IMG/VR virus record: IMGVR_UViG_3300021962_000102
Coordinates: 1-62,546 of that record
Strand: one strand, 5' to 3'
Length of the DNA: 62,546 bases
DNA from: a virus
Taxonomy: Duplodnaviria; Caudoviricetes
Shown here: positions 22,518 to 47,675 of the stretch, piece by piece
Position numbering within the stretch: the stretch's first letter is position 1
Layout: every line of letters starts with the position of its first letter
Program-made: the position numbers and the translations under genes
The notes under the pieces: generated by a model
Told to the model about the DNA's origin: nothing
The model's database searches: none
The model's input: only the letters and a program-made list of their open reading frames with translations

Positions 22518-25500
22518 ATGGAAGATAATAAATCTTTGTTTCGTTACGACGGAAAAGACTACACTCGCGAACAGATAGATATAGCCGCTGCAGAAAGCGG
22601 TTTATCTTTTGATGATTATATAAGTGAATTTGGATTAGAGCCAATTGATCCTATAAAAAAGATAACGGCCACAGTGGGAGGTGCGACTGTGGATCCAAAA
22701 CCCAAAGCACCAAGTACGGCATCCAAGCCGGTCGCTACTTCATCGGCATCGAAATCAAGTCCGATCGTACCTGATCCAGTAAAGCAGGCAAAGCAAAATA
22801 TAGATTCAATATTGTCTAATCCGTTTAGCGCAGATGAACTTGATAATATTGAGGCTCAGGTAAACGCCAAGCCATCGGTTGGTGTTACTGCTACTACGTT
22901 TGTTGGCGGTATGGGTGGCGGTGTTCCAGTTGTAAGTAAAAAGCCAACATATCCATACGAATCTCAGATTAACGTTGCTAAAAAGCAACTTGGAGTTGGT
23001 GCTACTGAGCAACAGATAAATGATTTAGCTAAAAATCTATATAGAGAGGAGTTAAAGTCTAAACTGGTTAAAAGAAAAGTAGACAATGTACTAAATCAAC
23101 TTGAAGACGAGACAAATAACTGGCAGAGCGTTGGTGAATTTTTTGAATCAGGTCTTGTCACATTGTCAAATCTTGGCTTAGGCGGAAGTGGCCAAGGCGT
23201 TCAGCCAGCTAAGTCAACAAAAGAGAAGAGATACGAAGCTGCCAGACAAGATGTTTCAGCATATGCAACACAGAAGTTAAACGAGAGACAAAAACTGGTA
23301 AACAAATCTGTTGCTGGCGCTAAACTAGCTAGTGCTGTTGTAGAAACAAATATCAATCAATTAAAAGAGATTGAGAAGAACATAAAGAATTCTCAAGACG
23401 CTGTAGAACGCAATGATTTAATTAATCAATATAATGCTGTTCTTGATGACACTAAGTCTGCTGCTGCCGCTTTTGAAGAATACAACGGTGAAGTAAGAAA
23501 GAATATAGACTATGTAAACTACGGTTCTCAAATAGTAAAAGATATACCAAAGTCTTACAACGAGTTAGATGTTTTTGAGAATAGAGTATTTACAACCGCT
23601 CTTACAACCGCCGCTAATCTAGCTGAGTTTGGAGAGACGGGTTCTTTGTATATGCTTAAGGCGCATAATCCCTATGTTGATCCTCAAATAATCAAAGCCA
23701 CATACGCCACGCCTGCTGAATCTTTTGGTGAAGACGTAAGAGAAATAACTGATGCTGCCAGTGTTCAAGTTAGAGATCATAGACCACTTGGAGACATATC
23801 CTCTTGGTCTGACTTTGGCGAGTTTATGGTTGATCTTGCTGGAGACCAAGCTTTTAACACCGGTTTGATGTTTGCTACTGGCGGTGTTGCTGGCGGTGCA
23901 TTACTTGGAGCCGGCGCGGCGGGTGGCAAGATGACAGAGATGTGGGACGCTAGAGCTAAGGGTGAAAACATAAGCGACGCTAAGTTTTTAGGTACGGCAA
24001 TTATATACGGAGGAGCAGAATGGGGAAGTGAATACATCGGTTTCGGCCAGTTAAAGCGCTCTTCTAAAATACTGGCTGACGCACTAGATCAAGGTGCAGT
24101 AACGATGACGCAACTAGGAGAGTCTTTTGGTAAGAAACTTGGTTCTGGACTTCAAGAGTATGGCGTTAACGTGTCTCAAGAAGGTTTTACAGAAGCTGTT
24201 TCTCAACTTGGCCAAAATATCGCTGATATAACGCTACTTGGTCAAAATAAAAGCATATTTGAAGGAGTAGAAGAATCTTTTGTTACGGGTTCTTTGATGT
24301 CTGGTTTGATGTTTCAAGCTCCGACGGTTGTAGCTGGAACAGTTAAACTATTTAATACTGTAGATGAAGTAAAGCAGGTTGACATAAACCAGAAAGAAAT
24401 AAATAGATTAAAACTTCAGTCTATAGAATTATCAAAGCAGATAAAACAGAAAGAAAACGAGGGTGCTGATGCCGCCGAGATTCAAGGTATGTATAGCAAC
24501 AAGAAACAAATTGACGACGTAATAGACGATTTGGCGCTTGCTAACACGGCCTTAATGCAGACTGGTATAGAACGCATAGACAATCTAAGAGATATAGAAA
24601 AAAGCGCTGTTATAGAGCAGTCTAAAAAAATAGCTTTTGCAAATTCGCTAATAAAAAAATATCAAGACATGATTGACTCTAGTGTGGATCTAGATGAGTC
24701 AACAACGTCTGATTTAATAAGCGAAATAAAAAAACTAAACGAATACAAAGACTCTAGTATAGAAACAATAAATGATATAATCAAAGAGTCTGATTTCTCT
24801 AAAACGCTAGACAAAGCGTACAGTGCTATAGAGCAATTTTCTAGTTCAGAGAATGGAGTTCCAACTGATATAATGAAATTTAATGGAGACATTAAGACAA
24901 CATATCAGATGCAGCAGTTTCTTGAATCAGATAAGTTTGCAGCTTATGTAGAAAAAAGATACGGAAAAGAAAAGCTTCAGCAAATAAAGAACGAGGCTTA
25001 CAAGCAGATAAAATTAAACGCTGGTAAGTCTGGTCTAGACGCGTTTAAGTCGAATGAATCTAAGACCAAAGCAAATGCTTTGTTTTTGACTTTCCCAAAC
25101 TTTGACTTAGCTGATGGCACTGAAGTTGAAATGCCTAGGTTTATAGTTTTAAATACTAAAAACGGTCTACACCACGAAACTGGTCACGCAACATTGTTTA
25201 GTGCAATTAGAGAGTCGTACGGAACAGATATTCTATCTACGATGTCTGACTCACTGTTGACTGAACTTAATGCTATTTTTGAATCAGATCCTGATAAGTA
25301 CGAATACGCGTCTAGATTCATAAAGAAACGTGTAGCGATGTACGAACAGCAACACGCTGACTACATAAAGAAATACGCGAACCATCCAGAAATAGAAAAT
25401 ATCACCGCCTGGTCTGAATCTAGACTTGCTGAAGAAAAACTAATAGCTTTCCTTGATTACGTAAAAGATTCGAAGCTAGAGGTAAAAAATGAAGCTAGAT

Positions 25501-28500
25501 TAAAAAATATATTCAAGGCAGTATCAAACGTTCTGGGAAAGGATAAAATGCAAACCTACAACGTTAGAGATGGCAAGGATGTGATGAATATGCTTAGGTC
25601 ATTTAACATGCACTTCGACAAGAAGGACATCGGTACAATGATAAGAAGCATTAATGAAAAGAAACTTCTTGCTGACAATAAGCTTTCTGAGATAGATTCT
25701 AATCTTAAGAAATCAGCAGATATCTTCAGAAAGATAATGAAGTCATTTGCTTCTCTTGCTGATGATATAAAGCCAAGTGCACATCCAAACTCAATACAGG
25801 CTGATAAAGTAAACAAGCTGTACGAAGAAAAAGGTGTTGAAGCAGCTTACGAAATAGCTGAACTATACGGAGGCATGTTGCGCAATGTACTTAGAAGATT
25901 TAAGTATTTGCCTAATTACGAGAACTTCGTAGAGGATATAATGGACGCCGTTAAATACGGAGATAGAGGTTTGTTTGGACTTATAAAGTCTTTTGATCCA
26001 GAGCGTGGTGTTCCTTTAGCTGCATACATAAACAAATACTTAAGCAAGAGAGCACTTGGCTACATAACTGAATACTTAAATCCAGAAGCTGGGTTTATGA
26101 AAGACGTTACTGAGCAGAAAGGCTTAATGGCAGAAGAAGAATACGACTTTGAGATTGATAAGCCAGAGCGTTCACATTCTGTTATACGCAAGTTCTTAGG
26201 ACTTAGCGAAGACCAAATGAATAAGGTTAGAAAGGCAGTTATAAACGCACTAGTATTTAACCCAGACATTCATAAGAAAAGAAAGTGGGTTCCTAGTGAG
26301 TTTAAGAGCGAACTTCTAAAGTCTTTTGAGCTTGACTTGTTTAATCTTGTTAAGTCAGATATATTCCCAAGCAAAAACCAAGATTGGTACCAGTATGCTG
26401 ATCAGATGTATGAATGGATTATAAACGAAGTTCCTATGGAAGTTTGGTTGAGATCCGGCGTTAGCATATTCTACGAGCCAGACATCGACCCAGTAAACAA
26501 TAAGCAAAAAAGGATGACGCCAGGTGAAGCTGAAATGGCTGGTGTTGCAGATATAAATTCTGGTAGATACAAGTGGATTGCTAAAAAGCCGACTAAAGAA
26601 CAGTGGATGGAATACATAAAGGCAGAAGGTATTAATCCAAACACTGGAAAGCCTTATTCTTGGACTACTGTTGGTACTAGAAAAGATACTATAGCCAAAA
26701 TTCTAGCTAGAGAGATGGCTTTTGATGCTACTCTAGAGGTCTTGCAAAATCCAGAACAGCCAACGTACGACTTTGATGGAAATCCAGACGGAGGAAGCAT
26801 AAATGTGATTCACAGAATGACATTGATGTCAGGACAAGAGTATAACAAACTCGCCGTTGTAGCTCAAGTTGCAGATATAATAAACAGAGACCCTAGAGTT
26901 ATGTTTAGTCTATCTGATGGCGGTTCTGTTGATAATAGATCAGCTGCGGCTGCGTTATTCGCAGAAGCTGAACTTATATTCCAAGAAATGGAAATTGTGT
27001 CTGAAGACGTTTCTGACTTGGCCGACGCGTACTCTAGTATCATAATAGATATACTAGATGAAAAGATGAAGGCCGCCGGAATGAAACCAATGTCTGAGAC
27101 TAAGAAGTTAGAGATAATTGAATCTGTACTGGCTATTAAATTCAAGGACGAAAGCAAAGAAAGCGAAGCCTGGAACAAAATCAGGACAGCCGGTATGATT
27201 AGTGTTGCTAAAAGTCTTTCTCAAGCTAGAGCAAAGAGCAAAACACTAATAGAAAGCAACGCACAAACCGCTAGAGAAATAGCTAATGAGATCAGACAAG
27301 AGATAGGTCTTTCTATGACTGCCAGAGAGAAAGAACTTAGCGATAGATTCAATAAGCTTTTGGAAAAGACTTTTGGAATAAAGCAAGGTAAAGTGTTCTC
27401 TGATTTCGATGCTCAAGTTGCGGCAAGCAAGCGATCTATACTTAAGAGTATGGAACTTATGCCTGTGACTGCTGAAGATTTTATTGGTCTTCTATATAGA
27501 ACTTTGTCTCCTGGCAAAGATGGCGAAGATCAAATGGCTTTTTATAGAAAATTCCTTTTGTATCCTTTCTACGACGGGGCAACAAGACACGACGCTGCGC
27601 GTGTTAGAATACTTAGCGGTTATAAAAAGTTAATCCAAGTAAAAAACAACAAGCACAAGCAGTTTAAAAAGATAGCATTCGGAAACTATACTATAGAACA
27701 CGTAATCAGAATAGCCATATGGAATAAGACTGGCGAATCTATAAGTGGTATTAGTTCTGAAGACGTTAAGTCAGCTATTGACTTTGCTAGAAAGATGCCT
27801 TGGGTCAATGAGATCGCAGACGATATAATTGAGATAATGGCACCAGATGGTTATGGTAAGCCACAGCAGAACTGGTTTTTGGGTAACATCGAAAACGATC
27901 TATACAACGCCATAAACGGTCATGTAAGAAAGAATAGAATGAAGGAGTTTGCTACAAACGCCGACGCTATATTCAATGAGTATAATATGAACAAAATACA
28001 AGCTGTGCTTGGTGGTTCATACAGGTTTGCTCTTCAGAACACACTTGAGCGGATGAAGTCTGGTAAGAACAGAATCGCAACTCAAAACGCTTGGGAAAGA
28101 AAGCTCAACAACTGGATAAATGGTTCTGTAGGTGCAATCATGTTCTTGAACATGCGAAGCGCCGTGCTTCAGCTTGTTTCTATGGGTAACTATATAAACT
28201 GGTCTGACAACAATCCAGTTGCTATCGCTAAGGCATACGCTAACACGAAGCAAATGGGTCAAGACATACTCAAGCTTTGGAACTCTGACTTTATGGTTAC
28301 TCGTAGAGATGGTCGTAAGATTGATATCAACGAGGCTGAATTGGTAGAGATGCTAGAAGAGTCTGGTGCTAATCTTGGAAAAATAATCAACTGGATTATA
28401 CAAAAAGGATTCACGCCTACGCAAGTTGCTGACTCAATGGCCATTATACTTGGTGGTGCTCCGTTCTACAGAAATAGAGTTAATACATACCTAAAAGAAG

Positions 28501-29399
28501 GTATGGATTTGAAGAAAGCAGAAGACAAAGCATTTCTTGATTTCAGAGAAACAACTGAAGAATCTCAACAGTCTTCTAGACCAGACCGTATATCACCACA
28601 GCAAGCTAGCTCAGCTGGTAGAATAATCTTGGCATTTGCTAACACTCCAGCTCAGTATTCTAGATTGATGATCAAAGCGGCTAAAGATATAAAGAACGGC
28701 AGAGGCGATCTTAAGACAAACATAAGCAAAATTGCTTACTACGCTATTATTCAGAATATGATATTTAGCTATATGCAGCAGGGTTTGTTTGCGTTATTAT
28801 TCTCTGACGACGAAGAAGAGGTTTCAGAAAAAGAAGCTACAGATTTGATCAACAGTGCCGCTGATTCTATACTTCGCGGTTTTGGAATACAGGGCGCGAT
28901 AATCTCTACATTGAAAAACGTAGCTATAGAATACGGTAGACAAGCAGAAGCGGGAAGATTTAAATCAGATAAAATCTTGCTTCAAGCTGCTAGTATATCT
29001 CCTCCTATTGGAAACAAGGTTAGAAAGATAAACAACATAATGTATAATTCTAGCCAAGTAACAAAAGAAGCCAAGAAGACTGGAGAATATGACTTTACTT
29101 CTAGACCAACTTTAGAAATTGCTGCTGGAGCTATAGAACTAGGTACCAACTTGCCATTGACTAGAGCATTGTCTAAATATGATAACGTCATATCAGCAAT
29201 GAACGAGGACACGCATGTTGTACTTAGAACAGCGATGCTATTTGGTTGGCCAGAGTGGCAATTAATCAAAGAAGAAGATGAAAAATCGTACAAGCCAATG
29301 TCTCAAGATGAATTCGTTGAGCAGATTAAGTCTAAGCAAACCGAAGACTCTGGAGCAATGAGCGAAGAAGATTATATAAACAGTTTAAACAAAAAATAA
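22518..29399 (+). CDS. giant ejection/polyvalent protein with zincin HExxH and sigma70 region-2-like domains
   Basis: 2293 aa; Gly-rich membrane-like segments; HHETGH at 25170; GLFGLIKSFDPERGVPLAAYINKYL at 25968. Confidence 0.7.
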   Translation: MEDNKSLFRYDGKDYTREQIDIAAAESGLSFDDYISEFGLEPIDPIKKITATVGGATVDPKPKAPSTASKPVATSSASKSSPIVPDPVKQAKQNIDSILSNPFSADELDNIEAQVNAKPSVGVTATTFVGGMGGGVPVVSKKPTYPYESQINVAKKQLGVGATEQQINDLAKNLYREELKSKLVKRKVDNVLNQLEDETNNWQSVGEFFESGLVTLSNLGLGGSGQGVQPAKSTKEKRYEAARQDVSAYATQKLNERQKLVNKSVAGAKLASAVVETNINQLKEIEKNIKNSQDAVERNDLINQYNAVLDDTKSAAAAFEEYNGEVRKNIDYVNYGSQIVKDIPKSYNELDVFENRVFTTALTTAANLAEFGETGSLYMLKAHNPYVDPQIIKATYATPAESFGEDVREITDAASVQVRDHRPLGDISSWSDFGEFMVDLAGDQAFNTGLMFATGGVAGGALLGAGAAGGKMTEMWDARAKGENISDAKFLGTAIIYGGAEWGSEYIGFGQLKRSSKILADALDQGAVTMTQLGESFGKKLGSGLQEYGVNVSQEGFTEAVSQLGQNIADITLLGQNKSIFEGVEESFVTGSLMSGLMFQAPTVVAGTVKLFNTVDEVKQVDINQKEINRLKLQSIELSKQIKQKENEGADAAEIQGMYSNKKQIDDVIDDLALANTALMQTGIERIDNLRDIEKSAVIEQSKKIAFANSLIKKYQDMIDSSVDLDESTTSDLISEIKKLNEYKDSSIETINDIIKESDFSKTLDKAYSAIEQFSSSENGVPTDIMKFNGDIKTTYQMQQFLESDKFAAYVEKRYGKEKLQQIKNEAYKQIKLNAGKSGLDAFKSNESKTKANALFLTFPNFDLADGTEVEMPRFIVLNTKNGLHHETGHATLFSAIRESYGTDILSTMSDSLLTELNAIFESDPDKYEYASRFIKKRVAMYEQQHADYIKKYANHPEIENITAWSESRLAEEKLIAFLDYVKDSKLEVKNEARLKNIFKAVSNVLGKDKMQTYNVRDGKDVMNMLRSFNMHFDKKDIGTMIRSINEKKLLADNKLSEIDSNLKKSADIFRKIMKSFASLADDIKPSAHPNSIQADKVNKLYEEKGVEAAYEIAELYGGMLRNVLRRFKYLPNYENFVEDIMDAVKYGDRGLFGLIKSFDPERGVPLAAYINKYLSKRALGYITEYLNPEAGFMKDVTEQKGLMAEEEYDFEIDKPERSHSVIRKFLGLSEDQMNKVRKAVINALVFNPDIHKKRKWVPSEFKSELLKSFELDLFNLVKSDIFPSKNQDWYQYADQMYEWIINEVPMEVWLRSGVSIFYEPDIDPVNNKQKRMTPGEAEMAGVADINSGRYKWIAKKPTKEQWMEYIKAEGINPNTGKPYSWTTVGTRKDTIAKILAREMAFDATLEVLQNPEQPTYDFDGNPDGGSINVIHRMTLMSGQEYNKLAVVAQVADIINRDPRVMFSLSDGGSVDNRSAAAALFAEAELIFQEMEIVSEDVSDLADAYSSIIIDILDEKMKAAGMKPMSETKKLEIIESVLAIKFKDESKESEAWNKIRTAGMISVAKSLSQARAKSKTLIESNAQTAREIANEIRQEIGLSMTAREKELSDRFNKLLEKTFGIKQGKVFSDFDAQVAASKRSILKSMELMPVTAEDFIGLLYRTLSPGKDGEDQMAFYRKFLLYPFYDGATRHDAARVRILSGYKKLIQVKNNKHKQFKKIAFGNYTIEHVIRIAIWNKTGESISGISSEDVKSAIDFARKMPWVNEIADDIIEIMAPDGYGKPQQNWFLGNIENDLYNAINGHVRKNRMKEFATNADAIFNEYNMNKIQAVLGGSYRFALQNTLERMKSGKNRIATQNAWERKLNNWINGSVGAIMFLNMRSAVLQLVSMGNYINWSDNNPVAIAKAYANTKQMGQDILKLWNSDFMVTRRDGRKIDINEAELVEMLEESGANLGKIINWIIQKGFTPTQVADSMAIILGGAPFYRNRVNTYLKEGMDLKKAEDKAFLDFRETTEESQQSSRPDRISPQQASSAGRIILAFANTPAQYSRLMIKAAKDIKNGRGDLKTNISKIAYYAIIQNMIFSYMQQGLFALLFSDDEEEVSEKEATDLINSAADSILRGFGIQGAIISTLKNVAIEYGRQAEAGRFKSDKILLQAASISPPIGNKVRKINNIMYNSSQVTKEAKKTGEYDFTSRPTLEIAAGAIELGTNLPLTRALSKYDNVISAMNEDTHVVLRTAMLFGWPEWQLIKEEDEKSYKPMSQDEFVEQIKSKQTEDSGAMSEEDYINSLNKK

Positions 29400-38782: not shown

Positions 38783-39532
38783 TTATAAATGGTCTAATAT
38801 TTGGGAATGATCTGTGTTTGCAATTAGTTTATCTATGGCGTCTTTTTTTATTTGGGACACCCTAACGTGAGCTGTTTCTACAAATATTCCTATTTTTTCA
38901 GCTATCTGTTTGGCATTGTGTTTTTCACAATCAAGACCATAGCTTAATCTAAGGACTTCATATTCTCTATCGTTAAGGTTCTTTTTCAAAAGACCCATTA
39001 GATAAGTATTAAGTATGTCTATATTATATGGCTCTGATGAGTCTGGTATGTCGTAGATATAGTTGTCGTCCACATTTGGTTGTTCATCAACAGATAAGAA
39101 TATGCTATTGAAGAACATTGCAACCATTTCTTTGTCTTTTCCACTGTCTTTTCTGATTTGGTTGATTTTGTGTTCGGGTATGCGTATATCACCTCTGTTT
39201 TTGTCGATGGCTCTACGTATTGCACCTTTGATTCTCTTTGATAAGAACGATATGATTGTTTTTTCTTTGTCATCGCTTCTTTCTACTTTTTCCCAATCTA
39301 TTTTATCAACAGCAGTAACCAAACCAATGTTGCCTTCCTGTATTAGGTCTTCTATGTTGAGAACGCCTATTGCTTGCTGTGTAGTAGTAAACTTTCTAGC
39401 AATGCCTTCTACAAGAGGTAAGAACATTGTTATAATGTCATCTCTATGTCTAGAATCTCTATCAACTCTAGATAAAAAGAATTCTACATCTTTTTTGTAT
39501 TTAACGTAATTCGTTATGTTGTACTTTTTCAT
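38783..39532 (-). CDS. phage sigma70-family factor (probably late)
   Basis: LVEGIARKF, DLIQEGNIGL, IRIP, region 4 LNDREYEVLRLSYGL..RVSQIKK. Confidence 0.88.
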   Translation of the reverse strand: MKKYNITNYVKYKKDVEFFLSRVDRDSRHRDDIITMFLPLVEGIARKFTTTQQAIGVLNIEDLIQEGNIGLVTAVDKIDWEKVERSDDKEKTIISFLSKRIKGAIRRAIDKNRGDIRIPEHKINQIRKDSGKDKEMVAMFFNSIFLSVDEQPNVDDNYIYDIPDSSEPYNIDILNTYLMGLLKKNLNDREYEVLRLSYGLDCEKHNAKQIAEKIGIFVETAHVRVSQIKKDAIDKLIANTDHSQILDHL

Positions 39533-41371: not shown

Positions 41372-41403
41372 TATTATCAACGAAGTGTTGTTGTTTTGTT
41401 GTG
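41372..41403 (-). promoter_or_regulatory. phage early promoter motif
   Basis: CACA-N8-ACA-N10-GATAATA. Confidence 0.7.
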
Positions 41404-41406
41404 TGG

Positions 41407-41637
41407 TTATGTGTTTTTCTCAAACACAAACAATATGTTTTCCCAAGCTTTTATTTCAAACTCTAATCTAGCTATAGCGGTTTCTTTATACTTGTTTTTG
41501 TTTATCAATGGATTATAACTAGAGATCGTATCTGATAAAACAATTTTGTGATCAGATATATTTTTCATTATTAACTCTCTAGAAACAGAATCAATATATT
41601 GTTTAGAATATTCTATCGTTTCTATATCTAGTTTCAT
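41407..41637 (-). CDS. hypothetical protein
   Basis: Co-oriented ORF, ATG 41637. Confidence 0.5.
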   Translation of the reverse strand: MKLDIETIEYSKQYIDSVSRELIMKNISDHKIVLSDTISSYNPLINKNKYKETAIARLEFEIKAWENILFVFEKNT

Positions 41638-41766
41638 TGTGTTTCTACTATTAAACTTAAAGCTTTTATATAACCATTCCAATACGCTGTTTCTTCAGTA
41701 AGACCCCTATATTTACAAACATTGCGGTTGTACTTAGCTTTTCTGTATTGCTCAATTATTATTTTC

Positions 41767-42075
41767 TCATTTTTCATCGTTAAGACTATTTATATAATCT
41801 TCATAACGTAGGCACTCGGCACACACCCATTCATCTTTAGTTGGACTGTTTTGTAAAATCTTTCTGTACACCTCATTTGGTGAGCCGCACCTATCGCATC
41901 TAATACTGTTCTCTAATCCGTATGGATTCCAATCAGCATTATCCTTGAAGTCGCTTGACACCTCTACGTACCATAGACCGAAGTCAAAGATGATAGACCA
42001 AGCTACGTTTGGGTATCGTAACCACGTTACACCAATAGCAAACTGGTCAACGTATTTTCCTTTGCTAATTTTCAT
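41767..42075 (-). CDS. hypothetical protein with CxxC..CxxC Zn ribbon
   Basis: CDRC...CAEC. Confidence 0.55.
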   Translation of the reverse strand: MKISKGKYVDQFAIGVTWLRYPNVAWSIIFDFGLWYVEVSSDFKDNADWNPYGLENSIRCDRCGSPNEVYRKILQNSPTKDEWVCAECLRYEDYINSLNDEK

Positions 42076-42268
42076 TGTCAGATTTTGTTTGGTTATTCGG
42101 ATTTTCTCCGAGTTGAGGTTCATTTTTTGACAACTCTACGATAAAGTCAGCGACCTTCTCGCACTGCTGCTTGTTTAGGAAGTAAAGGCTGTTAGAATGG
42201 AACGTATGACGAATCTTATCGTACACCAACTTCTTTATCAGCGCCCACTTTTCTTCTTCTGTTCTCAT
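42065..42268 (-). CDS. hypothetical protein
   Basis: ATGA-coupled chain. Confidence 0.55.
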   Translation of the reverse strand: MRTEEEKWALIKKLVYDKIRHTFHSNSLYFLNKQQCEKVADFIVELSKNEPQLGENPNNQTKSDNEN

Positions 42269-42501
42269 TTGTACTTGCGTATTACTTCAAAGGTTCTCTT
42301 AATGTCAGAATCAAGATGTGGTTTTTGTTCTGCTCTCACAGGATACCAAGCAATAGTATAACCGTGGTTTGCATTCCAGTCTTCTTTCTTCACTCTGTTC
42401 CCGTTGACGCTGTGCAGATATATCCAAGGGATGTTACCCATCAGCTCAAGCTTAATGCCGATACGCTTCATACGATTGATGAAGATGTCAACCTCGTTCA
42501 T
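42265..42501 (-). CDS. hypothetical protein
   Basis: ATGA-coupled chain; GNIPWIYL motif. Confidence 0.65.
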   Translation of the reverse strand: MNEVDIFINRMKRIGIKLELMGNIPWIYLHSVNGNRVKKEDWNANHGYTIAWYPVRAEQKPHLDSDIKRTFEVIRKYK

Positions 42502-42707
42502 TTCTCGTTGGTTTTGTATTCTTTATCAAAAGAATCTGCAATCTGACGGGTGGTCAAATCTCCGTACTTGAAAGCGAAGTCAACCATCTGCTCCTTCTCC
42601 ATTTCTTTGGCTTTAATTAGAATATCATTTGCGTCTGTAAATTCTGATTTTCCATAAAGAAATTTTGATAACTCAATGTGTTGCCACTCTACTGCTGTCT
42701 GTTTCAT
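42498..42707 (-). CDS. MKQTAVEW-type small phage protein
   Basis: KQTAVEW...KAKEMEKEQ. Confidence 0.65.
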   Translation of the reverse strand: MKQTAVEWQHIELSKFLYGKSEFTDANDILIKAKEMEKEQMVDFAFKYGDLTTRQIADSFDKEYKTNEK

Positions 42708-42868
42708 TTCTCGTTTGTTTTAAAGGTTTCATTTAATAGTTCTGCTAAATCTTGGGCATCTTCTCCGATAGACCCAATTATCTTTCCGTCTACAAGCACG
42801 TTGTATCCGTATTCATCACAACATCCGTCTCCGCAGGTGTGCCAGTATGGTTGAAGTTCTATTTTCAT
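42704..42868 (-). CDS. 54-aa protein with CGDGCC motif (not in the ORF track)
   Basis: MKIELQPYWHTCGDGCCDEYG...FKTNEK*, ATGA overlaps at both ends. Confidence 0.65.
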   Translation of the reverse strand: MKIELQPYWHTCGDGCCDEYGYNVLVDGKIIGSIGEDAQDLAELLNETFKTNEK

Positions 42869-43155
42869 TTCTGCTTAGCGTCAAAGTCTGAATACTTCAG
42901 CCCCCACATTACATTGAACCAGCGCATCTCCTTCTCTGCATAGACTGCTCGCATCTTGAGTTCCTTCATAAGGTACTGCTTACCCCACTCCTTCAGTTCC
43001 TCTCCCTGCTCAAAGGTCATAGTGTACTTCTGAAACCACTTGTCTACGCCACGGATGTCGTCGTAGGTTACGTCGTGTCCAGCAATATCAAACATCTTAT
43101 TGATGATGTCAACGATTGCCTTCTCTTTCTTTTGTTCTCTTGTTAGTCGTTTCAT
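42865..43155 (-). CDS. hypothetical protein
   Basis: ATGA-coupled chain. Confidence 0.65.
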   Translation of the reverse strand: MKRLTREQKKEKAIVDIINKMFDIAGHDVTYDDIRGVDKWFQKYTMTFEQGEELKEWGKQYLMKELKMRAVYAEKEMRWFNVMWGLKYSDFDAKQK

Positions 43156-43304
43156 TCTTCAGTGTTGAAATAGTTAGACGTGCTACACTCCTCACACAAC
43201 CGCTTGCCCTGCATCACAAGACCGAGCTTTGGTGTATGTGTAGTCACCTTCTGGCAGTGTAAGCAGAACTGCTTACCTCGTTTGTGGATTGCGTCTTGTT
43301 TCAT
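43152..43304 (-). CDS. 50-aa Zn-ribbon protein (not in the ORF track)
   Basis: FCLHC...LCEEC; ATGA overlap. Confidence 0.6.
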   Translation of the reverse strand: MKQDAIHKRGKQFCLHCQKVTTHTPKLGLVMQGKRLCEECSTSNYFNTEE

Positions 43305-43349
43305 AATGTGTGTTTAAATGCACAAAGTGTGTAGGTTTTGTGTGATTTA

Positions 43350-43607
43350 TTACACATTATCCTCAATTAGAATCTCCCAATAGTCGTCGTGTTCAACGAA
43401 CCCATTAACAATTCCTTGTAGTAAATACAGCGACATATTAGTGCCCAAGGATATAAATGGTCCGCCGCTTGGGTCAACAAATATAATCTTGTCGTCATCA
43501 TTCCACCCGTAGCGCGTGTACTTGAAGTCTCCCTTCCAGTCGATGTTGCCGTTCTCGTTCTTTTCAAACGTGAACTCGTCTTTATATCTGTTAGTGTACT
43601 TAATCAT
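43350..43607 (-). CDS. hypothetical protein
   Basis: FVDPSGGPFI motif. Confidence 0.65.
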   Translation of the reverse strand: MIKYTNRYKDEFTFEKNENGNIDWKGDFKYTRYGWNDDDKIIFVDPSGGPFISLGTNMSLYLLQGIVNGFVEHDDYWEILIEDNV

Positions 43608-43966
43608 TGGAATGTTTGAATTTTAGCATATACTTCTTTTAGTTCAGACCAAGTACCTAAGTACGTAATTGCTCTAACTTTTCTGTTGTCAATCCATACG
43701 TATTCTTGTCCGTCTTTGATGCGTGGTTTATCCATCACTAATCCATGATACTTGAATCCGTGGTCACTCAACCATTTTTCTGTAACGGCACGGTCTTTTG
43801 ATTCTCTTGCTGTGAAAAAAGTTATAACATTACCATCTTCATACCACTTGTTTATGATTTTTAAAGCGTTGTCATAAACTTTAGCGTATGGGAACAAATG
43901 ACTTTCTTCATTTTTAATGTCATCGCATATTGTTCCGTCAATATCAATTAAGAATACTTTATTCAT
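43604..43966 (-). CDS. HAD-superfamily phosphatase
   Basis: FLIDIDGT, FTAR, MDKP, WIDN; ATG 43966. Confidence 0.8.
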   Translation of the reverse strand: MNKVFLIDIDGTICDDIKNEESHLFPYAKVYDNALKIINKWYEDGNVITFFTARESKDRAVTEKWLSDHGFKYHGLVMDKPRIKDGQEYVWIDNRKVRAITYLGTWSELKEVYAKIQTFQ

Positions 43967-43978
43967 TTTGTTTTTACT

Positions 43979-44055
43979 TGGCACCCCTGACAGGAATCGA
44001 ACCTGTAACCTACGCATTAGAAGTGCGTTGCTCTATCCAGTTGAGCTACAGGGGC
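43979..44055 (-). tRNA. tRNA-Arg(UCU)
   Basis: Canonical cloverleaf, loop CT-TCT-AA, GTTCGA T loop, encoded CCA. Confidence 0.95.
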
Positions 44056-44060
44056 ATAAT

Positions 44061-44139
44061 AGTACGCTCGGTGGGACTCGAACCCACGTGTGACCAGTTA
44101 CCCTTTCTACAAGGTATAAGCTTGAGGGGATACGAGCGT
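44061..44139 (-). tRNA. non-canonical tRNA-like RNA, anticodon UAU (Ile), no D arm
   Basis: 7-bp acceptor ACGCTCG/CGAGCGT, T arm GTGGG-TTCGAGT-CCCAC, loop CT-TAT-AC, discriminator A. Confidence 0.7.
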
Positions 44140-44146
44140 TTATGCT

Positions 44147-44356
44147 TTAAAACTCAGGATGTATATCGCTATCATTTAGCGAATCGTAGTGTTCTCCGTT
44201 GTTTCCATTGCGTAGTATGATCATCATACGTTGCTCTGCTTCTTTTTCTTCTTCGTCAATCTCAATTTGTTGGAATTGCGCGTGTACTGCGCAGGCATTG
44301 ACTATGTATTTCTGGTCGTCTCCAGGGTCGTCGTCAAGTATCACATTATTGTTCAT
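44147..44356 (-). CDS. hypothetical acidic protein
   Basis: RMMIILRNGNNGEHY motif. Confidence 0.55.
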   Translation of the reverse strand: MNNNVILDDDPGDDQKYIVNACAVHAQFQQIEIDEEEKEAEQRMMIILRNGNNGEHYDSLNDSDIHPEF

Positions 44357-44553
44357 TGTTCCCAATATATGAATTTGTAACCATCAGTATTATTAGATGC
44401 TTTGTTTTTCGATCTATCAATCATTGATTTACGTTCTAGCCATCTAGAATACATTTTAGCAACTACTGCATCTCTTTGTCTTTTAAATGGATAGTATTTT
44501 CTAACCTTAGCATTAGCTATTCTTAAAAAGTCATTCATCTGCTTGTCGTCCAT
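44353..44553 (-). CDS. hypothetical protein
   Basis: Coupled ORF. Confidence 0.55.
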   Translation of the reverse strand: MDDKQMNDFLRIANAKVRKYYPFKRQRDAVVAKMYSRWLERKSMIDRSKNKASNNTDGYKFIYWEQ

Positions 44554-44818
44554 CTCCTTCTTCTTGTTTAGTGTTGTAAAGCATACTGCAAAATAAAATA
44601 TATGTAGCTATTTTATTATAAATATACTCAGACGGTAGACCATCGTCTTTGTCTGACTTTATAACATTTATAGCAAATTTAGCTGCTAGTTTTTCAACAA
44701 ACACGCTAGCAGCCTCTGCTCCGAATTGTTTATGTACTTCATAAACGCTCTTGCCTATATCTAGAGGGTTTATTTCACTTATGTTAAAGTCTTCCTGATC
44801 CATTGTAATACTGCTCAA
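44531..44818 (-). CDS. hypothetical protein (start may be 44803)
   Basis: Co-oriented ORF. Confidence 0.5.
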   Translation of the reverse strand: MSSITMDQEDFNISEINPLDIGKSVYEVHKQFGAEAASVFVEKLAAKFAINVIKSDKDDGLPSEYIYNKIATYILFCSMLYNTKQEEGDGRQADE

Positions 44819-44941
44819 CTATGTTTATTGCCCTGTCCATAGCTTGTAAGTTGGCAGTGTGCACGTTTTTGTTTTTGAGCATCCATTCAACGAATTTAGC
44901 GCTTTTAGAAATACTTTCTGCAAGTTTATCTTGTTTCATAA

Positions 44942-45211
44942 TTAATGTTGTTGCCAAATCATCATTGTTCCTGGATCATACCACTCGAAATACCAACCGT
45001 TTTTTTCAACAAGTTCGTTGATTTTTGGATGTACGCCAAATGTGTTGTTCCAAGTATCACTATAGTAATCGAAGAACTGTGGAGTGTAATCTGCAGCTAA
45101 CCAAATGCCTTGATTTTCTACTTTGTGACCATAAAAATCAGATGCGGTACCACACACTTTAAGACCTTTTTCCGAAAGCAGGTCCATTAATTTACTAATA
45201 TCAGTAGCCAT
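44942..45211 (-). CDS. hypothetical protein
   Basis: GWYFEWYDPGT motif. Confidence 0.65.
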   Translation of the reverse strand: MATDISKLMDLLSEKGLKVCGTASDFYGHKVENQGIWLAADYTPQFFDYYSDTWNNTFGVHPKINELVEKNGWYFEWYDPGTMMIWQQH

Positions 45212-45464
45212 TTTCGTCTAAATAAGCTTGAATTAATTCTTCTAACTTGTTAAAAAACACAATGTTAGAACCGTTTTTATCCACGATTAACGCCTTTGAA
45301 CCTATAGATAGGCTAATTGCATTTACATAAGCATCCCAGCCTGCTTGAGCGCCAGTGCCAGATTCGTAGTCTAATTCTGCTGGAGAATATTCTGCAGATC
45401 CGAACACATCAACTTCAATGTGATCGTTAAAAGGCATTAGCCCAGTTAATTCTATTTTTGACAT
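45201..45464 (-). CDS. hypothetical acidic protein
   Basis: Directly downstream of an early promoter. Confidence 0.6.
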   Translation of the reverse strand: MSKIELTGLMPFNDHIEVDVFGSAEYSPAELDYESGTGAQAGWDAYVNAISLSIGSKALIVDKNGSNIVFFNKLEELIQAYLDENGY

Positions 45465-45481
45465 TTAGCTGTTGTTTTATG

Positions 45482-45513
45482 TATTATCAAACGGTGATCG
45501 TTACTTGGTTGTG
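45482..45513 (-). promoter_or_regulatory. phage early promoter motif
   Basis: CACA-N8-ACG-N10-GATAATA. Confidence 0.75.
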
Positions 45514-45893
45514 AGGTAAATGTTTTTATTGATCTTACGGTTGTGTGAAATGCTCCACTTGTGTTCATTTGCAGTCACGTAGTCAAGTATGTATAGCAAA
45601 CGATCCTTACGGCTGAGAATCTTTACAACCTTACCATCTATACGCGGGTTGATTGGATAGTATTGGTTTGAGAAGTTTTTACCAATGTTGCGTTGGCGTA
45701 TTACGTTTCCAGCAAGTGTTTCACTGATTGTGAATCCATATCGCGTTTGCCAATATGTACTACCGTTGTTAAGGTTTTTCTTCGGAGCAACAGGTGTTAA
45801 GCCAGCGTCAATAAGCTTTTTCCAAGCGTTGCCTTCTGATTTGATTTCGTCATAGACAATAGTGAGTTCGTAGGGTTTATTTGTCTTTTTCAT
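45501..45893 (-). CDS. hypothetical protein
   Basis: 130-aa co-oriented ORF. Confidence 0.6.
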   Translation of the reverse strand: MKKTNKPYELTIVYDEIKSEGNAWKKLIDAGLTPVAPKKNLNNGSTYWQTRYGFTISETLAGNVIRQRNIGKNFSNQYYPINPRIDGKVVKILSRKDRLLYILDYVTANEHKWSISHNRKINKNIYLTTK

Positions 45894-45983
45894 TTTTTTC
45901 TGATTTTTTATCTAGGTATTTTGACAATAAGAATACTGATACTAAAAACAATAGGAATATTGAAAACGGTATAATCTTGTTTA

Positions 45984-46844
45984 CTACAGTAAGATACTTG
46001 AGCATTTTTTATTTCTTTTTAATCTATTTAATCCGCTGTCTTTTAGTTGACGCGCTTTTTCATCTGGAATATCTAATTCCATAGCTATTTGCTTAATAGT
46101 CTTGGCATGTTCAAACGCGCCTAAATACATTGACACAACCTTGAAGTGCATTGGATTTAAAACCTTCTCTGCAGTTTTCCAAAACAGATTTACTGTAGAC
46201 TCCTGTGTTATATCTTCATCTGGTTGTGCGTAGGTTGTGTTAGGCAACACATCAGATATTGTAGTTGATGATTCATCTCCAGACAGCGTAGCGTCGCTAG
46301 ACGTCATCTCTGCGGTGTGGTTGAACATGTCTAAAACAAAACTCTCTTCAACGCCAAGATGTTCTGCAATCTCAAAAGGTTCTGGTTCTCTAAACAGTTT
46401 CTGCTCGAGCTCAGACGATGCCTTGCGTATCCTATTCATATTGGCATTCCTATTGCCTGGCGTGTATATCTGCTTTGACTTAGTGTCAATTGAGTGTAGT
46501 ATACTCTGCCTGATCCACCACACGGCGAACGATATGAACTTAAAACCTCTTGTTGGATCGAACCTGTCAACAGCCTTAATAAGGCCGATGTTGCCTTCTG
46601 ATATTAAGTCTTCAAGCTTCATACCAGATACTTGATACTGCTTGGCGACAGATACAACAAACCTTAAGTTTGCGCGCGTTAGTTTTTCTTTTGCAACTGG
46701 ATCCCCTGTTTCGTAAATGATTTTAGTTAATTCAAATTCTTCTTCTGGCGTTAATAGTTTTTCTTTAGAAAGCTCTAAAAAGTATTTATCTATTGATTTG
46801 CTTTCGCGTTTAGTAATCTGATTGGCGATCTTAAGTTGGCGCAT
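45984..46844 (-). CDS. RpoD/SigA-like sigma factor of the Bacteroidota primary-sigma type
   Basis: MRQLKI..ITKRE, ANLRFVVSVAKQYQ, DLISEGNIGL, FDPTRGFKFISFAVWWIRQSI. Confidence 0.92.
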   Translation of the reverse strand: MRQLKIANQITKRESKSIDKYFLELSKEKLLTPEEEFELTKIIYETGDPVAKEKLTRANLRFVVSVAKQYQVSGMKLEDLISEGNIGLIKAVDRFDPTRGFKFISFAVWWIRQSILHSIDTKSKQIYTPGNRNANMNRIRKASSELEQKLFREPEPFEIAEHLGVEESFVLDMFNHTAEMTSSDATLSGDESSTTISDVLPNTTYAQPDEDITQESTVNLFWKTAEKVLNPMHFKVVSMYLGAFEHAKTIKQIAMELDIPDEKARQLKDSGLNRLKRNKKCSSILL

Positions 46845-47059
46845 TAATCTAAAAGTTCTGGATAAAATTCTCGGATAGTCATCTTATCCATTTCATAATA
46901 TGGCGATGACAAGAAATCAAACAACTGTTGCTTTGTGCCCGTTAACAAGGCTATGCCGTAGTTGGTTTTACAGGCGATATTAAACTTGGCACATAAAGAA
47001 ACAAACTCTTGCTCTGGACCAACGTAGTCTAGATCAATAGTTAAAAGTTCTTCTTGCAT
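46844..47059 (-). CDS. hypothetical protein
   Basis: Coupled ORF. Confidence 0.55.
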   Translation of the reverse strand: MQEELLTIDLDYVGPEQEFVSLCAKFNIACKTNYGIALLTGTKQQLFDFLSSPYYEMDKMTIREFYPELLD

Positions 47060-47391
47060 TAGTAAACGTTTTTAATAAGTATTCTTTGGTGCGAACTACC
47101 GTCCCATTCGACTTCATAGCCTGCGGTTTCAAACGTACGGCGGATTTCTTCACCGTCACCAGCCCACGCGATGTATAGGTTGTTTGTATCTCTAAGATGA
47201 GACTTGTCTTGTGCGTGGTAGAAAACAACCTTTTGCTCTTTGCCTTCTGGCACGGCACTCCATCCGCACCCCTGGCAGCACATGAAGTTTTGCCTAGCGA
47301 AGTACCCTAGTTTACGCAGTTCTTTAAACACTGCGGTTAATTGGCTATTGTCAACACTATAGCGATTGCTGTATCTCGTCGAGCGCCTCAT
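47059..47391 (-). CDS. DUF6891-like protein
   Basis: ARQNFMCCQGCG, VFYHAQD, LYIAW. Confidence 0.6.
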   Translation of the reverse strand: MRRSTRYSNRYSVDNSQLTAVFKELRKLGYFARQNFMCCQGCGWSAVPEGKEQKVVFYHAQDKSHLRDTNNLYIAWAGDGEEIRRTFETAGYEVEWDGSSHQRILIKNVY

Positions 47392-47671: not shown

Positions 47672-47675
47672 AAGA

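What the first reader, a model, noticed from the sequence alone, without database searches (positions are those of the whole stretch)
25790..26255. Sigma70-like domain inside the giant ejection protein: candidate virion-injected sigma factor
Seen: residues ~1095-1245 read AAYEIAELYGGMLRNVLRRF...EDIMDAV..GDRGLFGLIKSFDPERGVPLAAYINKYLSKRA. This aligns by eye with region 2 of this phage's own RpoD-like gene ([38 protein letters not shown]). About 45 aa later comes a region-4.2-like helix (IRKFLGLSEDQMNKVRKAVINAL). Known: crAss-like phages carry a virion RNA polymerase in a giant protein at a comparable genomic position; none is recognisable here. Inference: the phage injects a sigma module with its DNA and redirects host core RNAP to its non-host early promoters before any phage gene is expressed.
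Basis: partly seen in the sequence, partly recalled or inferred. Interest (0 to 1): 0.9.

Follow-up and report, generated by a model that had tools for sequence, protein, structure and literature searches.

The report
Sigma-domain-2 look-alike in giant phage protein
A giant late protein of this uncultured phage of Bacteroidota carries a very diverged copy of the part of bacterial sigma factors that docks on RNA polymerase, but not a whole sigma factor, so the phage may grip the host's transcription enzyme at entry, which is untested.

Summary
The quoted residues are there, in ORF 22518-29399 (2293 aa), the last gene of the virion-gene block of a 62.5-kb, 99%-complete crAss-related phage record. 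Residues ~1090-1189 form a conserved helical domain. Sequence evidence for sigma region 2 is weak to moderate: Pfam Sigma70_r2 scores 15.8-21.6 bits against a cut-off of 24. Two family profiles put sigma factors on top of PDB (E 0.0065 and 0.00029). hhalign against the phage's own 249-aa sigma family gives 41%.

The AlphaFold2 core is confident (pLDDT 83-97). Foldseek lists mostly sigma factors, but no hit reaches E 0.001. A co-fold with Flavobacterium beta-prime clamp helices scored 0.76 against 0.12 for the best control, through the helix equivalent to region 2.2; this may only reflect likeness to solved complexes.

No region 3 or 4 was found, and the tryptophan pair of region 2.3 is replaced. 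The phage has two free sigma genes and no RNA polymerase. An invariant HExxH block lies just upstream.

My reading is a sigma-2-like polymerase-docking module in a probably ejected mosaic protein. A complete injected sigma factor is not supported. Packaging, binding and promoter use are all untested.

This scan found the same domain earlier in several other marine phage genomes. My four searches of the held paper library found no paper describing it.

The parts
22518..29399 (+). Giant ORF, 2293 aa (P0001). It is the last gene of the + strand virion-gene block and starts 10 nt after the preceding ORF.
   Evidence: Upstream genes are terminase, portal, structural proteins and a crAss muzzle-like protein. 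100 giant homologues were found; 589 IMG/VR stretches encode a relative.
25035..25754 (+). HExxH (zincin-like) block, aa 840-1079. The HExxH motif is at aa 886-890 (25173-25187), with a further invariant Glu at aa 973.
   Evidence: H886, E887 and H890 are invariant in A1. G28, H47, E48, H51 and E134 are invariant in A5. 8 of 28 members weakly hit Peptidase_M78, best E 0.0015. Small zinc endoproteases are the only PDB hits, at E 0.34.
25785..26084 (+). Sigma-2-like helical domain, aa ~1090-1189. Helices at aa 1091-1116, 1118-1126, 1134-1147, 1152-1158 and 1167-1187.
   Evidence: AF2 pLDDT is 83-97 over this stretch. Pfam Sigma70_r2 is sub-threshold. PDB profile hits are. hhalign against A7 gives 41%.
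25914..25961 (+). Helix equivalent to sigma region 2.2 (aa 1133-1148), the predicted contact with the beta-prime clamp helices.
   Evidence: In the co-fold with RPOC_FLAJ1 215-350, interface residues are A2 54-69 (= aa 1133-1148) plus aa 1111, 1186 and 1189, against beta-prime 284-319. Score 0.76 against a best control of 0.12.
26091..26174 (+). Acidic linker of low confidence (aa 1192-1219), preceded by the conserved F-x-x-D-[VI]-[TS]-E motif.
   Evidence: pLDDT is below 50. F114 is invariant and D117 and E120 nearly invariant in A2.
26181..26279 (+).
   Evidence: pLDDT is 62-83. There is no Sigma70_r4 match and no fold match.
26292..26879 (+). Mid block of mixed helices and short strands (aa ~1259-1454), fold of unknown kind.
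   Evidence: The AF2 model of aa 1080-1500 has pLDDT mostly 70-90 here. Foldseek against PDB gave nothing at E<=0.001.
27285..29396 (+). C-terminal domain (aa 1590-2293), the most conserved part of the family.
   Evidence: A4: 32 sequences, 38-44% identity to the window, 82 invariant columns. No Pfam or PDB sequence match. The protein-atlas lead to clusters carrying LPD38/LPD39 is a lead only.
45984..46844 (-). Context: free-standing RpoD-like sigma gene (286 aa).
   Evidence: Pfam regions 1.2, 2, 3 and 4 are all over their cut-offs. About 47% identical to Bacteroidota primary sigma factors.
38783..39532 (-). Context: second free-standing sigma gene (249 aa).
   Evidence: Pfam Sigma70_r2 37.1 bits and Sigma70_r4 28.1 bits. 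Thousands of close homologues exist, some on 60-70 kb contigs.
41372..51979 (-). Context: seven bipartite promoter-like sites CAC[AG]A-N18-22-GATAATA on the - strand, at 41372, 45482, 47639, 48616, 50895, 51248 and 51948. Five have an ATG 3-5 nt after the motif; at 47639 the ATG overlaps the motif's last A, and at 45482 it lies about 18 nt downstream.
   Evidence: 7 matches against 0.07 expected. Sequences are shown.

Best explanation
Residues ~1090-1189 of the giant protein are a very diverged homologue of sigma-factor domain 2 (regions 1.2 and 2.1-2.4). This is the domain that docks on the clamp helices of the RNA polymerase beta-prime subunit. It stands alone: there is no sigma-3 or sigma-4. 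It sits directly after a zincin-like HExxH block, inside a mosaic 2293-aa protein encoded as the last gene of the virion block.

Most likely the protein is packaged and ejected with the DNA, as giant proteins at this position are in related phages (inferred). The domain, whole or cut free by the neighbouring peptidase (inferred), then binds the host polymerase core at the sigma site (predicted in silico only). The consequence is open. It could compete with the host primary sigma, hold the polymerase at the entering genome, or supply the -10-reading half of a split sigma.

Shown: the domain's presence, its conservation, its predicted fold and the predicted interface. Inferred: packaging, cleavage, binding in the cell and any effect on transcription.
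For: - Pfam Sigma70_r2 is the top family on P0001 and its fragments, covering nearly the whole profile, and scores 21.6 bits in the genome scan.
- 4 of 5 PDB sequence hits of the whole protein are sigma factors.
- Profile A2 (25 sequences) against PDB: the top 2 hits are sigma factors at E 0.0065 and 0.0069, and 5 of 9 hits are sigma.
- Profile A8 (18 other lineages plus the window): the top hit is sigma factor 8x6g_H at E 0.00029, and 3 of 8 hits are sigma.
- In A8, Sigma70_r2 is the Pfam family hit by most members, 3 of 19.
- hhalign of A2 against the family of the phage's own 249-aa sigma gives probability 41%, E 2.8e-4, with 83 columns covering exactly its region 2. The unrelated control A4 gives 0.13%.
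- AF2 core pLDDT is 83-97, and the same helices recur in the second model.
- Foldseek against PDB: 35 of the 46 rows listed are sigma-factor entries or chains of sigma-polymerase initiation complexes. 6omf_F has probability 0.99 and rmsd 3.3 A over 97 columns. SigmaE region 2 (4lup_A) has TM 0.59 by target length.
- Foldseek against BFVD: 8 of the top 18 rows are named sigma or polymerase subunits.
- Family-invariant G1148 and G1151 and near-invariant Y1170 fall on the Gly-x-x-Gly and Tyr of the RpoS row in the HMMER alignment.
- Co-fold with Flavobacterium johnsoniae beta-prime 215-350: score 0.76, best of 3 controls 0.12. That mark was reached by 58 of 80 solved complexes and 2 of 110 mismatched pairs. 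Runs agree in at least 72% of contacts and partner pLDDT is at least 81. The interface is the region-2.2-equivalent helix on beta-prime 284-319.
- Context: the virion-gene order matches Elemovirus, where the giant gene at this position is annotated as a structural protein.
Against: - Every Pfam score is under the 24-bit cut-off.
- Only 1 of 25 members of A2 and 3 of 19 of A8 hit Sigma70_r2 at E<=1.
- hhalign against 24 Bacteroidota primary sigmas gives 1%. Against the single own sigmas it gives 3.5% and 10.8%.
- The A2 profile against 1.84 billion proteins found only 369 hits at E<=0.001. That is far fewer than if sigma factors were matched. The 150 rows shown range from 223 to 3366 aa, most over 1000, and none was identified as a sigma factor.
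- No Foldseek hit reaches E 0.001; the best are 0.13 (PDB) and 0.059 (BFVD).
- The two tryptophans of region 2.3 align with Lys-Tyr here and with Lys-Phe/Tyr in the family.
- No region 3 or 4 was found.
- The domain was detected in only 35 of 74 (jackhmmer) to 46 of 74 (iterated profile) full-length relatives.
- The co-fold pass may come from memory of solved sigma/beta-prime complexes. Beta-prime came from a stand-in species and its own pLDDT was only 55-58.
- There is no virion proteomics, and no cultured phage in INPHARED carries this protein family.
Confidence: 0.5

Rival explanations
1. The injected domain acts as a working sigma factor that directs host core polymerase to the phage's GATAATA early promoters before any phage gene is expressed. 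It would act alone, like a -10-only minimal sigma, or with a partner for the upstream element.
For: - The sigma-2-like fold and the predicted beta-prime docking.
- The sites lack the TAnnTTTG box of Bacteroidota promoters (consensus recalled).
- Sigma-2-only factors exist (T4 gp55, recalled).
Against: - No region 4 was found.
- The tryptophan pair that helps open the -10 element is replaced.
- The exact bipartite motif occurs 0, 0, 2, 1, 1 times in 5 relatives with the domain and 0, 1, 1, 0, 0 times in 5 without it. The backwards-read control gave 1 and 2 matches in total. The nearly invariant helix PLAAYINK therefore does not track this motif.
- The phage already encodes two complete sigmas.
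- Cellulophaga baltica polymerase is reported to transcribe the T7 A1 promoter in vitro (passages).
Confidence: 0.12
2. The domain has no link to transcription. It is a helical packing or scaffolding unit of an internal virion protein, and its likeness to sigma-2 is distant ancestry without retained function, or convergence of a small helical bundle.
For: - All sequence and fold statistics are marginal.
- Giant proteins at this locus are mosaics. MW202828.1 (3859 aa) shares nothing detectable with this one, and Elemovirus gp18 (3694 aa) shares only the HExxH block.
- The domain is not detected in 28 of 74 relatives.
Against: - Independent lines agree on the same family and the same register: Pfam, two PDB profile searches, hhalign to the phage's own sigma family, two fold libraries and the co-fold interface.
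- The family's most conserved residues coincide with hallmark positions of sigma region 2.2-2.3.
Confidence: 0.23
3. The domain binds polymerase, but in the producing cell and late in infection. It could sequester core polymerase or displace sigma while virions are built. In this reading the protein is not delivered into the next host, or delivery is irrelevant to this domain.
For: - The gene lies in the late block and would be made in quantity late.
- Nothing here shows packaging.
Against: - Gene order matches that of relatives in which the giant gene at this position is annotated as structural.
- An adjacent zincin-like block is typical of injected polyvalent proteins as described by Iyer et al. 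2017 (abstract and passages).
Confidence: 0.15

Closest known systems
Sigma-70 family, domain sigma-2 (regions 1.2, 2.1-2.4; Pfam PF04542). Nearest rows: 8x6g_H, SigE N-terminal domain 8b3z_A, pro-sigmaK 8vjl_B, RpoS 6omf_F/7vf9_F, sigmaE region 2 4lup_A.
   Same: - Predicted helix order and fold.
- The Asp-x-Ile-x-x-Gly-x-x-Gly-Leu ... Phe-Asp-Pro-x-x-Gly ... Tyr pattern in the right register.
- Predicted docking of the region-2.2-equivalent helix on the beta-prime clamp helices.
   Different: - Below every curated threshold.
- Embedded in a 2293-aa protein.
- No region 3 or 4.
- The tryptophan pair is replaced by Lys-Tyr/Phe.
- No sigma factor reached E 0.001 in a search of 1.84 billion proteins.
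Phage T4 gp55, a minimal sigma made of a sigma-2-like domain only that reads a -10-type late promoter (recalled, not fetched here).
   Same: A sigma-2-only polymerase-docking unit in a phage. It would work without a -35-reading domain.
   Different: - gp55 is a small free protein made during infection and needs gp33 and the sliding clamp.
- The domain here is part of a giant late protein.
- No partner is identified, and no sequence or fold match to gp55 appeared among the listed hits.
Virion RNA polymerases delivered with the DNA: crAss-like phi14:2 gp66 (2180 aa, DFDID motif) and N4 vRNAP.
   Same: A giant protein at the end of the virion block of a crAss-related podophage (muzzle-protein homologue), and the idea of bringing transcription machinery into the cell (passages).
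   Different: - P0001 has no D-x-D-x-D motif anywhere.
- No polymerase Pfam or PDB hit.
- The phage encodes sigma factors, so it relies on the host polymerase.
Polyvalent proteins of phages and conjugative elements (Iyer et al. 2017, PMC5512222).
   Same: A multidomain giant protein of a phage with a zincin-like HExxH block that could process it, and a proposed role at the earliest stage of infection. A protein-atlas lead points to clusters carrying LPD38/LPD39.
   Different: - The word sigma, or the Greek letter, occurs 0 times in that paper's main text; its supplements were not seen.
- No LPD Pfam model hits the protein.
Earlier cases in this scan: sigma-2-like domains in giant proteins of other marine phage genomes, and a complete ECF-type sigma inside a gp16-like ejection protein.
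   Same: The same kind of domain in proteins of 2227-3041 aa of marine Flavobacteriia phages, with the same verdicts of observation confirmed and reading partly supported.
   Different: - Those notes are AI notes on other DNA.
- The sequence look-up found no look-alike stretch of this window's own domain.
- The ECF case is a complete sigma in an unrelated phage type.

Membership tests
Sigma-70 family (as a sigma-2 domain) | Match to Pfam Sigma70_r2 over the curated cut-off (24 bits) | tested here: not met
   15.8, 19.2, 20.1, 21.1 and 21.6 bits. 1 of 25 and 3 of 19 family members hit at E<=1.
Sigma-70 family (as a sigma-2 domain) | Sigma-2 helical fold | tested here: met
   Predicted model only. 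Core pLDDT is 83-97. 35 of 46 listed PDB rows are sigma entries or initiation-complex chains. 6omf_F has probability 0.99 and rmsd 3.3 A over 97 columns. 4lup_A has TM 0.59 by target length. No hit reaches E<=0.001. BFVD agrees.
Sigma-70 family (as a sigma-2 domain) | Binding of region 2.2 to the beta-prime clamp helices | tested here: inconclusive
   The co-fold scored 0.76 against a best control of 0.12, with the interface on the expected helix. This is a model's confidence, possibly from memory of solved complexes, and not a measurement.
Sigma-70 family (as a sigma-2 domain) | Aromatic residues of region 2.3 that open and hold the -10 element (Tyr and the Trp pair; their role is recalled) | tested here: not met
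   The Tyr is kept (Y1170, near-invariant). The Trp-Trp of RpoS aligns with Lys-Tyr here and with Lys-Phe/Tyr in the family.
Sigma-70 family (as a complete sigma factor) | Domain sigma-4 (region 4.2 helix-turn-helix, Pfam PF04545) | tested here: not met
   There is no r4 hit in P0001 at E<=10. In the whole genome only the two free sigma genes hit at E<=1. The 421-aa model found no sigma-3/4 match.
Sigma-70 family (as a complete sigma factor) | Promoter-specific initiation with core polymerase | not testable with these tools
   This needs in vitro transcription. The motif co-distribution test was uninformative.
crAss-like virion RNA polymerase (phi14:2 gp66 type) | DFDxD catalytic motif in a double-psi beta-barrel | tested here: not met
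   No D-x-D-x-D motif in P0001. No polymerase hit in Pfam or PDB sequences. PF00623 is absent from the genome, with the control ringing in 14 of 14 genomes.
Polyvalent proteins (Iyer et al. 2017) | Several unrelated domains in one giant phage polypeptide, with a zincin-like peptidase | tested here: met
   An invariant HExxH plus a downstream Glu. Weak Peptidase_M78 hits in 8 of 28 members. Sigma-2-like, mid and C-terminal blocks are distinct. Peptidase activity is untested.
Polyvalent proteins (Iyer et al. 2017) | Packaged in the virion and injected with the DNA | not testable with these tools
   Only gene position supports this. No cultured phage in INPHARED carries the family.

The most novel reading that the evidence does not exclude
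A large group of uncultured marine Bacteroidota phages has replaced the injected RNA polymerase of its crAss-like relatives with an injected half-sigma. A sigma-2 module is carried in the virion inside a giant protein and cut free by the adjacent zincin peptidase on entry. It docks on the host beta-prime clamp helices and directs core polymerase to the phage's own -10-type early promoters before any phage protein is made. This would be the first case of a virion-delivered promoter-specificity subunit.
Probability: 0.12. Interest if true: 0.85.

Novelty: new variant of a known kind. Interest (0 to 1): 0.6.

Why it matters
Phages are known to take over transcription at entry in two main ways. 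Some inject a whole RNA polymerase (N4, crAss-like, phiKZ-like phages). Others inject an enzyme that modifies the host polymerase (T4 Alt).

A polymerase-docking sigma domain built into a probably ejected giant protein would be a third route. The domain occurs in at least 369 protein clusters at 50% identity and in hundreds of IMG/VR contigs. It would also explain how phages with non-host-type early promoters and no polymerase of their own could start.

It gives a compact, testable fragment of about 105 aa. Even if the domain only blocks or tethers the polymerase, it would be a new class of host-takeover module in an abundant, uncultured marine phage group.

Tried and rejected
- **Virion RNA polymerase.** Rejected. 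P0001 has no D-x-D-x-D motif and no polymerase family or PDB hit, and PF00623 is absent from the genome. The PF00940 search is uninformative because its control rang nowhere.
- **Sigma-4 in the 'region-4.2-like helix' or in the 1259-1454 block.** Not found.
- **PHROGs on P0001.** 0 families.
- **tblastn of P0001 against INPHARED.** No match at 1e-5.
- **Giant proteins at the same position in relatives.** The one in MW202828.1 shows no similarity. Elemovirus gp18 shares only a weak HExxH block, 19.4 bits.
- **C-terminal domain.** No Pfam or PDB sequence match. The atlas gave LPD38/LPD39 leads only.
- **hhalign controls.** A2 against A5 is invalid, because some A5 segments run into the start of the sigma-like region, which gave the 98.6%. 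A2 against A4 is the valid control, at 0.13%.
- **Profile search of 1.84 billion proteins.** It returned only the family itself (369 at E<=0.001). It neither links nor unlinks sigma factors at that database size.
- **Co-distribution of the bipartite GATAATA motif with the domain.** The 5 relatives with the domain had 0, 0, 2, 1, 1 matches. The 5 relatives without it had 0, 1, 1, 0, 0. No signal. The closest relative's record is only 76% complete. The 'without' label rests on my own detection, which is a lower bound.
- **Hydropathy scan.** Only two moderately hydrophobic 19-mers, at aa 450-468 and 1871-1889. This is too weak to call membrane segments.
- **Papers.** Four searches found none describing a sigma-like domain in a giant virion or ejection protein. 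I saw passages only of 10.1101/2020.03.07.982082, PMC5512222, PMC7824862 and PMC9965538. The supplements of these papers were not seen and could list such a domain under another name.
Full report
**What the window is**

The window is a whole IMG/VR virus record of 62,546 bases, estimated 99% complete.

- The + strand carries the virion block: terminase (6342-8558), portal (8562-10985), structural proteins, a 1436-aa protein with the crAss muzzle C-terminal domain (16112-20422), two smaller ORFs, and then the giant ORF 22518-29399.
- The - strand carries replication genes: ribonucleotide reductase, primase-helicase, ERF and a PD-(D/E)XK-like protein. It also carries two free-standing sigma genes. 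One is a 286-aa RpoD-like gene (45984-46844) with Pfam regions 1.2, 2, 3 and 4. The other is a 249-aa gene (38783-39532) with regions 2 and 4.
- The RpoD-like protein is about 47% identical to primary sigma factors named as Bacteroidota, so the host is very probably a member of that phylum.
- By terminase, the nearest cultured phages are Flavobacterium Elemovirus phages, at 46% identity, followed by Cellulophaga phages.
- No RNA polymerase is recognisable. PF00623 is absent while its control rings in 14 of 14 genomes. P0001 has no D-x-D-x-D motif, no polymerase family and no polymerase among its PDB sequence hits.

**The observation**

The stated coordinates 25790-26255 correspond to aa ~1092-1246.

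**Is the region-2 likeness real? Sequence evidence**

The sequence evidence is weak to moderate.

- Pfam Sigma70_r2 is the best family on the whole protein (15.8 bits). It is also best on fragments (19.2, 20.1 and 21.1 bits; E 0.0011 to 0.00028). It covers profile positions 3-61/62 of 71, but always falls under the 24-bit cut-off. The six-frame genome scan gives 21.6 bits.
- 4 of the 5 PDB chains that phmmer finds for the 2293-aa protein are sigma factors, all on aa 1073-1183, at E 0.04-0.4.
- The region is conserved. A search with aa 1040-1340 found 100 giant proteins of 1421-3352 aa, and the shared core is aa ~1089-1220.
- A profile of the domain from the window and 24 IMG/VR relatives (A2) puts two sigma factors on top of PDB at E 0.0065 and 0.0069. 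5 of its 9 hits are sigma factors.
- A second profile, of 18 further and more divergent lineages plus the window (A8), puts sigma factor 8x6g_H on top at E 0.00029.
- Profile-profile comparison with 16 homologues of the phage's own 249-aa sigma gives probability 41% and E 2.8e-4. It aligns 83 columns onto exactly that protein's region 2. An unrelated control alignment gives 0.13%.

Results against the likeness:

- Only 1 of 25 (A2) and 3 of 19 (A8) members reach Sigma70_r2 at E<=1 on their own.
- The comparison with 24 Bacteroidota primary sigmas gives only 1%.
- In a search of 1.84 billion proteins the A2 profile finds 369 proteins at E<=0.001. The 150 rows shown range from 223 to 3366 aa, most over 1000, and none was identified as a sigma factor.

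**Fold evidence**

- AlphaFold2 on A2 gives a confident core, pLDDT 83-97 for aa ~1090-1189. It has five helices in the order expected for regions 1.2, 2.1, 2.2 and 2.3-2.4. The same helices recur in a second, longer model.
- Foldseek against PDB returns no hit at E<=0.001; the best is 0.13. Even so, 35 of the 46 rows listed are sigma-factor entries or chains of sigma-polymerase initiation complexes. That those chains are the sigma subunit is my reading of the titles. 6omf_F has probability 0.99 and rmsd 3.3 A over 97 columns. Isolated sigmaE region 2 has TM 0.59 by target length.
- Against BFVD, rank 1 is an uncharacterised 1475-aa viral protein, probably a family member. 8 of the top 18 rows are named sigma or polymerase subunits, all at E>=0.059.
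- The family's invariant G1148 and G1151 and near-invariant L1155, G1164 and Y1170 fall on the Gly-x-x-Gly-Leu, Gly and Tyr positions of the RpoS row in the HMMER alignment.
- The Trp-Trp of that row aligns with Lys-Tyr here.

**Docking on the polymerase**

I co-folded aa 1087-1197 (with the A2 alignment) and residues 215-350 of Flavobacterium johnsoniae RpoC.

- The score was 0.76 against 0.12 for the best of 3 controls. The tool's mark was reached by 58 of 80 solved complexes and 2 of 110 mismatched pairs.
- The three runs agree in at least 72% of contacts, and the partner's pLDDT is at least 81.
- The interface is aa 1133-1148, the region-2.2-equivalent helix, plus aa 1111, 1186 and 1189, on beta-prime 284-319.
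- This is where sigma factors sit on the clamp helices (recalled).
- The tool warns that such a pass can come from memory of solved complexes. It shows likeness, not that this copy binds. The beta-prime fragment came from a stand-in species and was itself modelled poorly (pLDDT 55-58).

**What is not there**

- Region 4 is absent. Pfam Sigma70_r4 finds only the two free sigma genes in the whole genome at E<=1 and nothing in P0001 at E<=10.
- A 421-aa model (aa 1080-1500) folds a further block (aa ~1259-1454, pLDDT mostly 70-90) of helices and short strands. Foldseek finds nothing for it at E<=0.001, and no sigma-3/4 likeness.

**The rest of the protein**

- Directly upstream lies a block with an invariant HExxH (H886, E887, H890) and a further invariant Glu (E973). 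8 of 28 members weakly hit Peptidase_M78. The only PDB hits are small zinc endoproteases, at E 0.34.
- In all 26 IMG/VR giant ORFs where I detected both blocks, the sigma-like domain starts next to, or slightly overlapping, the detected end of the HExxH block, between about 39 aa before it and 62 aa after it.
- The C-terminal 700 aa are the most conserved part: 38-44% identity to the window and 82 invariant columns. They match no Pfam family or PDB sequence. A language-model look-up points to viral clusters, some carrying LPD38 or LPD39, the 'large polyvalent protein-associated domains'. That is a lead only.
- The sigma-like module was detected in 35 of 74 (jackhmmer) and 46 of 74 (iterated profile, still rising) full-length giant ORFs of the fetched loci. 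It is therefore widespread in the family but very divergent, or absent from some members.
- Giant proteins at this genomic position are mosaics. The 3859-aa one of MW202828.1 shares nothing detectable with this one. Elemovirus gp18 (3694 aa, annotated 'structural protein') shares only the HExxH block.

**Promoters**

- GATAATA occurs 22 times against 12.5 expected.
- The bipartite form CAC[AG]A-N18-22-GATAATA occurs 7 times against 0.07 expected. All seven are on the - strand between 41372 and 51979. Five have an ATG 3-5 nt after the motif; at 47639 the ATG overlaps the motif's last A, and at 45482 it lies about 18 nt downstream.
The exact motif occurs 0, 0, 2, 1, 1 times in five relatives with the domain and 0, 1, 1, 0, 0 times in five without.
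- The phi14:2 preprint reports that C. baltica polymerase transcribes the T7 A1 promoter, and that sigma70-type middle promoters of that phage are used by host-type holoenzyme (passages).

**Reading**

- I put the odds that this is a true, very diverged sigma-2 domain at about 0.85.
- I put the odds that it docks on host polymerase as part of an ejected protein at about 0.5.
- I put the odds that it works as an injected promoter-specificity factor at about 0.12.
- The mechanism I think most likely runs as follows. The giant protein is packaged and ejected (inferred from position). It is possibly cut by its own zincin block (inferred). The sigma-2-like unit then occupies the clamp helices of host core polymerase (predicted).
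- Whether that blocks host sigma, tethers polymerase to the entering DNA, or supplies half of a split sigma cannot be told here.

**Comparison and novelty**

- The domain works like sigma-2 and may be homologous to it, but it fails the curated Pfam threshold and lacks region 4. I therefore do not file the protein as a sigma factor.
- It is closest in concept to T4 gp55 (sigma-2 only, recalled), to injected polymerases of crAss-like and N4-like phages, and to the polyvalent injected proteins of Iyer et al. 2017. The main text of that paper never uses the word sigma.
- Four literature searches found no description of such a domain. Supplements were closed.
- This scan has already reported the same kind of domain in giant proteins of several other marine phage genomes, with the same partial verdicts. 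For the scan, this window is a further member rather than a first sighting.

Noticed in passing
window 41372-51979, - strand: Seven copies of a bipartite promoter-like motif CAC[AG]A-N18-22-GATAATA, against 0.07 expected. Five have an ATG 3-5 nt downstream; at 47639 the ATG overlaps the motif's last A, and at 45482 it lies about 18 nt downstream, which would mean very short or no leaders. One copy precedes the operon holding the RpoD-like sigma gene.
   Followed up: partly
window 25035-25754 (aa 840-1079 of the giant ORF): An invariant HExxH plus a downstream Glu, with weak Peptidase_M78 likeness in 8 of 28 relatives. In all 26 relatives where both blocks were detected, it sits directly before the sigma-like domain. 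It is a candidate self-processing peptidase.
   Followed up: partly
window 26091-26120 (aa ~1192-1201): A conserved F-x-x-D-[VI]-[TS]-E motif at the start of a disordered acidic linker just after the sigma-like domain (F invariant, D and E nearly invariant). It may be a processing site.
   Followed up: no
window 27285-29396 (aa 1590-2293): The C-terminal 700 aa are the most conserved part of the family, with 82 invariant columns including many Asn, Gln, Arg and Gly. They have no Pfam or PDB sequence match. The only lead is to viral clusters carrying LPD38/LPD39.
   Followed up: partly
window 38783-39532 (-): The 249-aa sigma factor has thousands of homologues. All 8000 scored candidates pass E<=0.001, and the 120 listed are at least 65% identical. 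Some lie on contigs of 60-72 kb. It looks like a core gene of an abundant marine phage group.
   Followed up: no
L001 (MW202828.1) 741-12320; L086 (NC_055853.1) 18719-29803: Related phages carry giant genes of 3859 and 3694 aa at the same position. They share nothing, or only the HExxH block, with this one, so the giant gene is a swappable mosaic.
   Followed up: partly
window 39501-40154 (-): A 217-aa ORF overlapping the start of the 249-aa sigma gene has a weak HTH_11 hit (E 0.0011). It is a possible further transcription regulator.
   Followed up: no
window 54705-56306 (+): A phage-encoded GroEL-type chaperonin (Cpn60_TCP1, E 9e-58). MW202828.1 likewise carries groEL and a chaperonin-10 (GroES-type) gene; in the Elemovirus stretch viewed only co-chaperonin GroES is annotated.
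   Followed up: no
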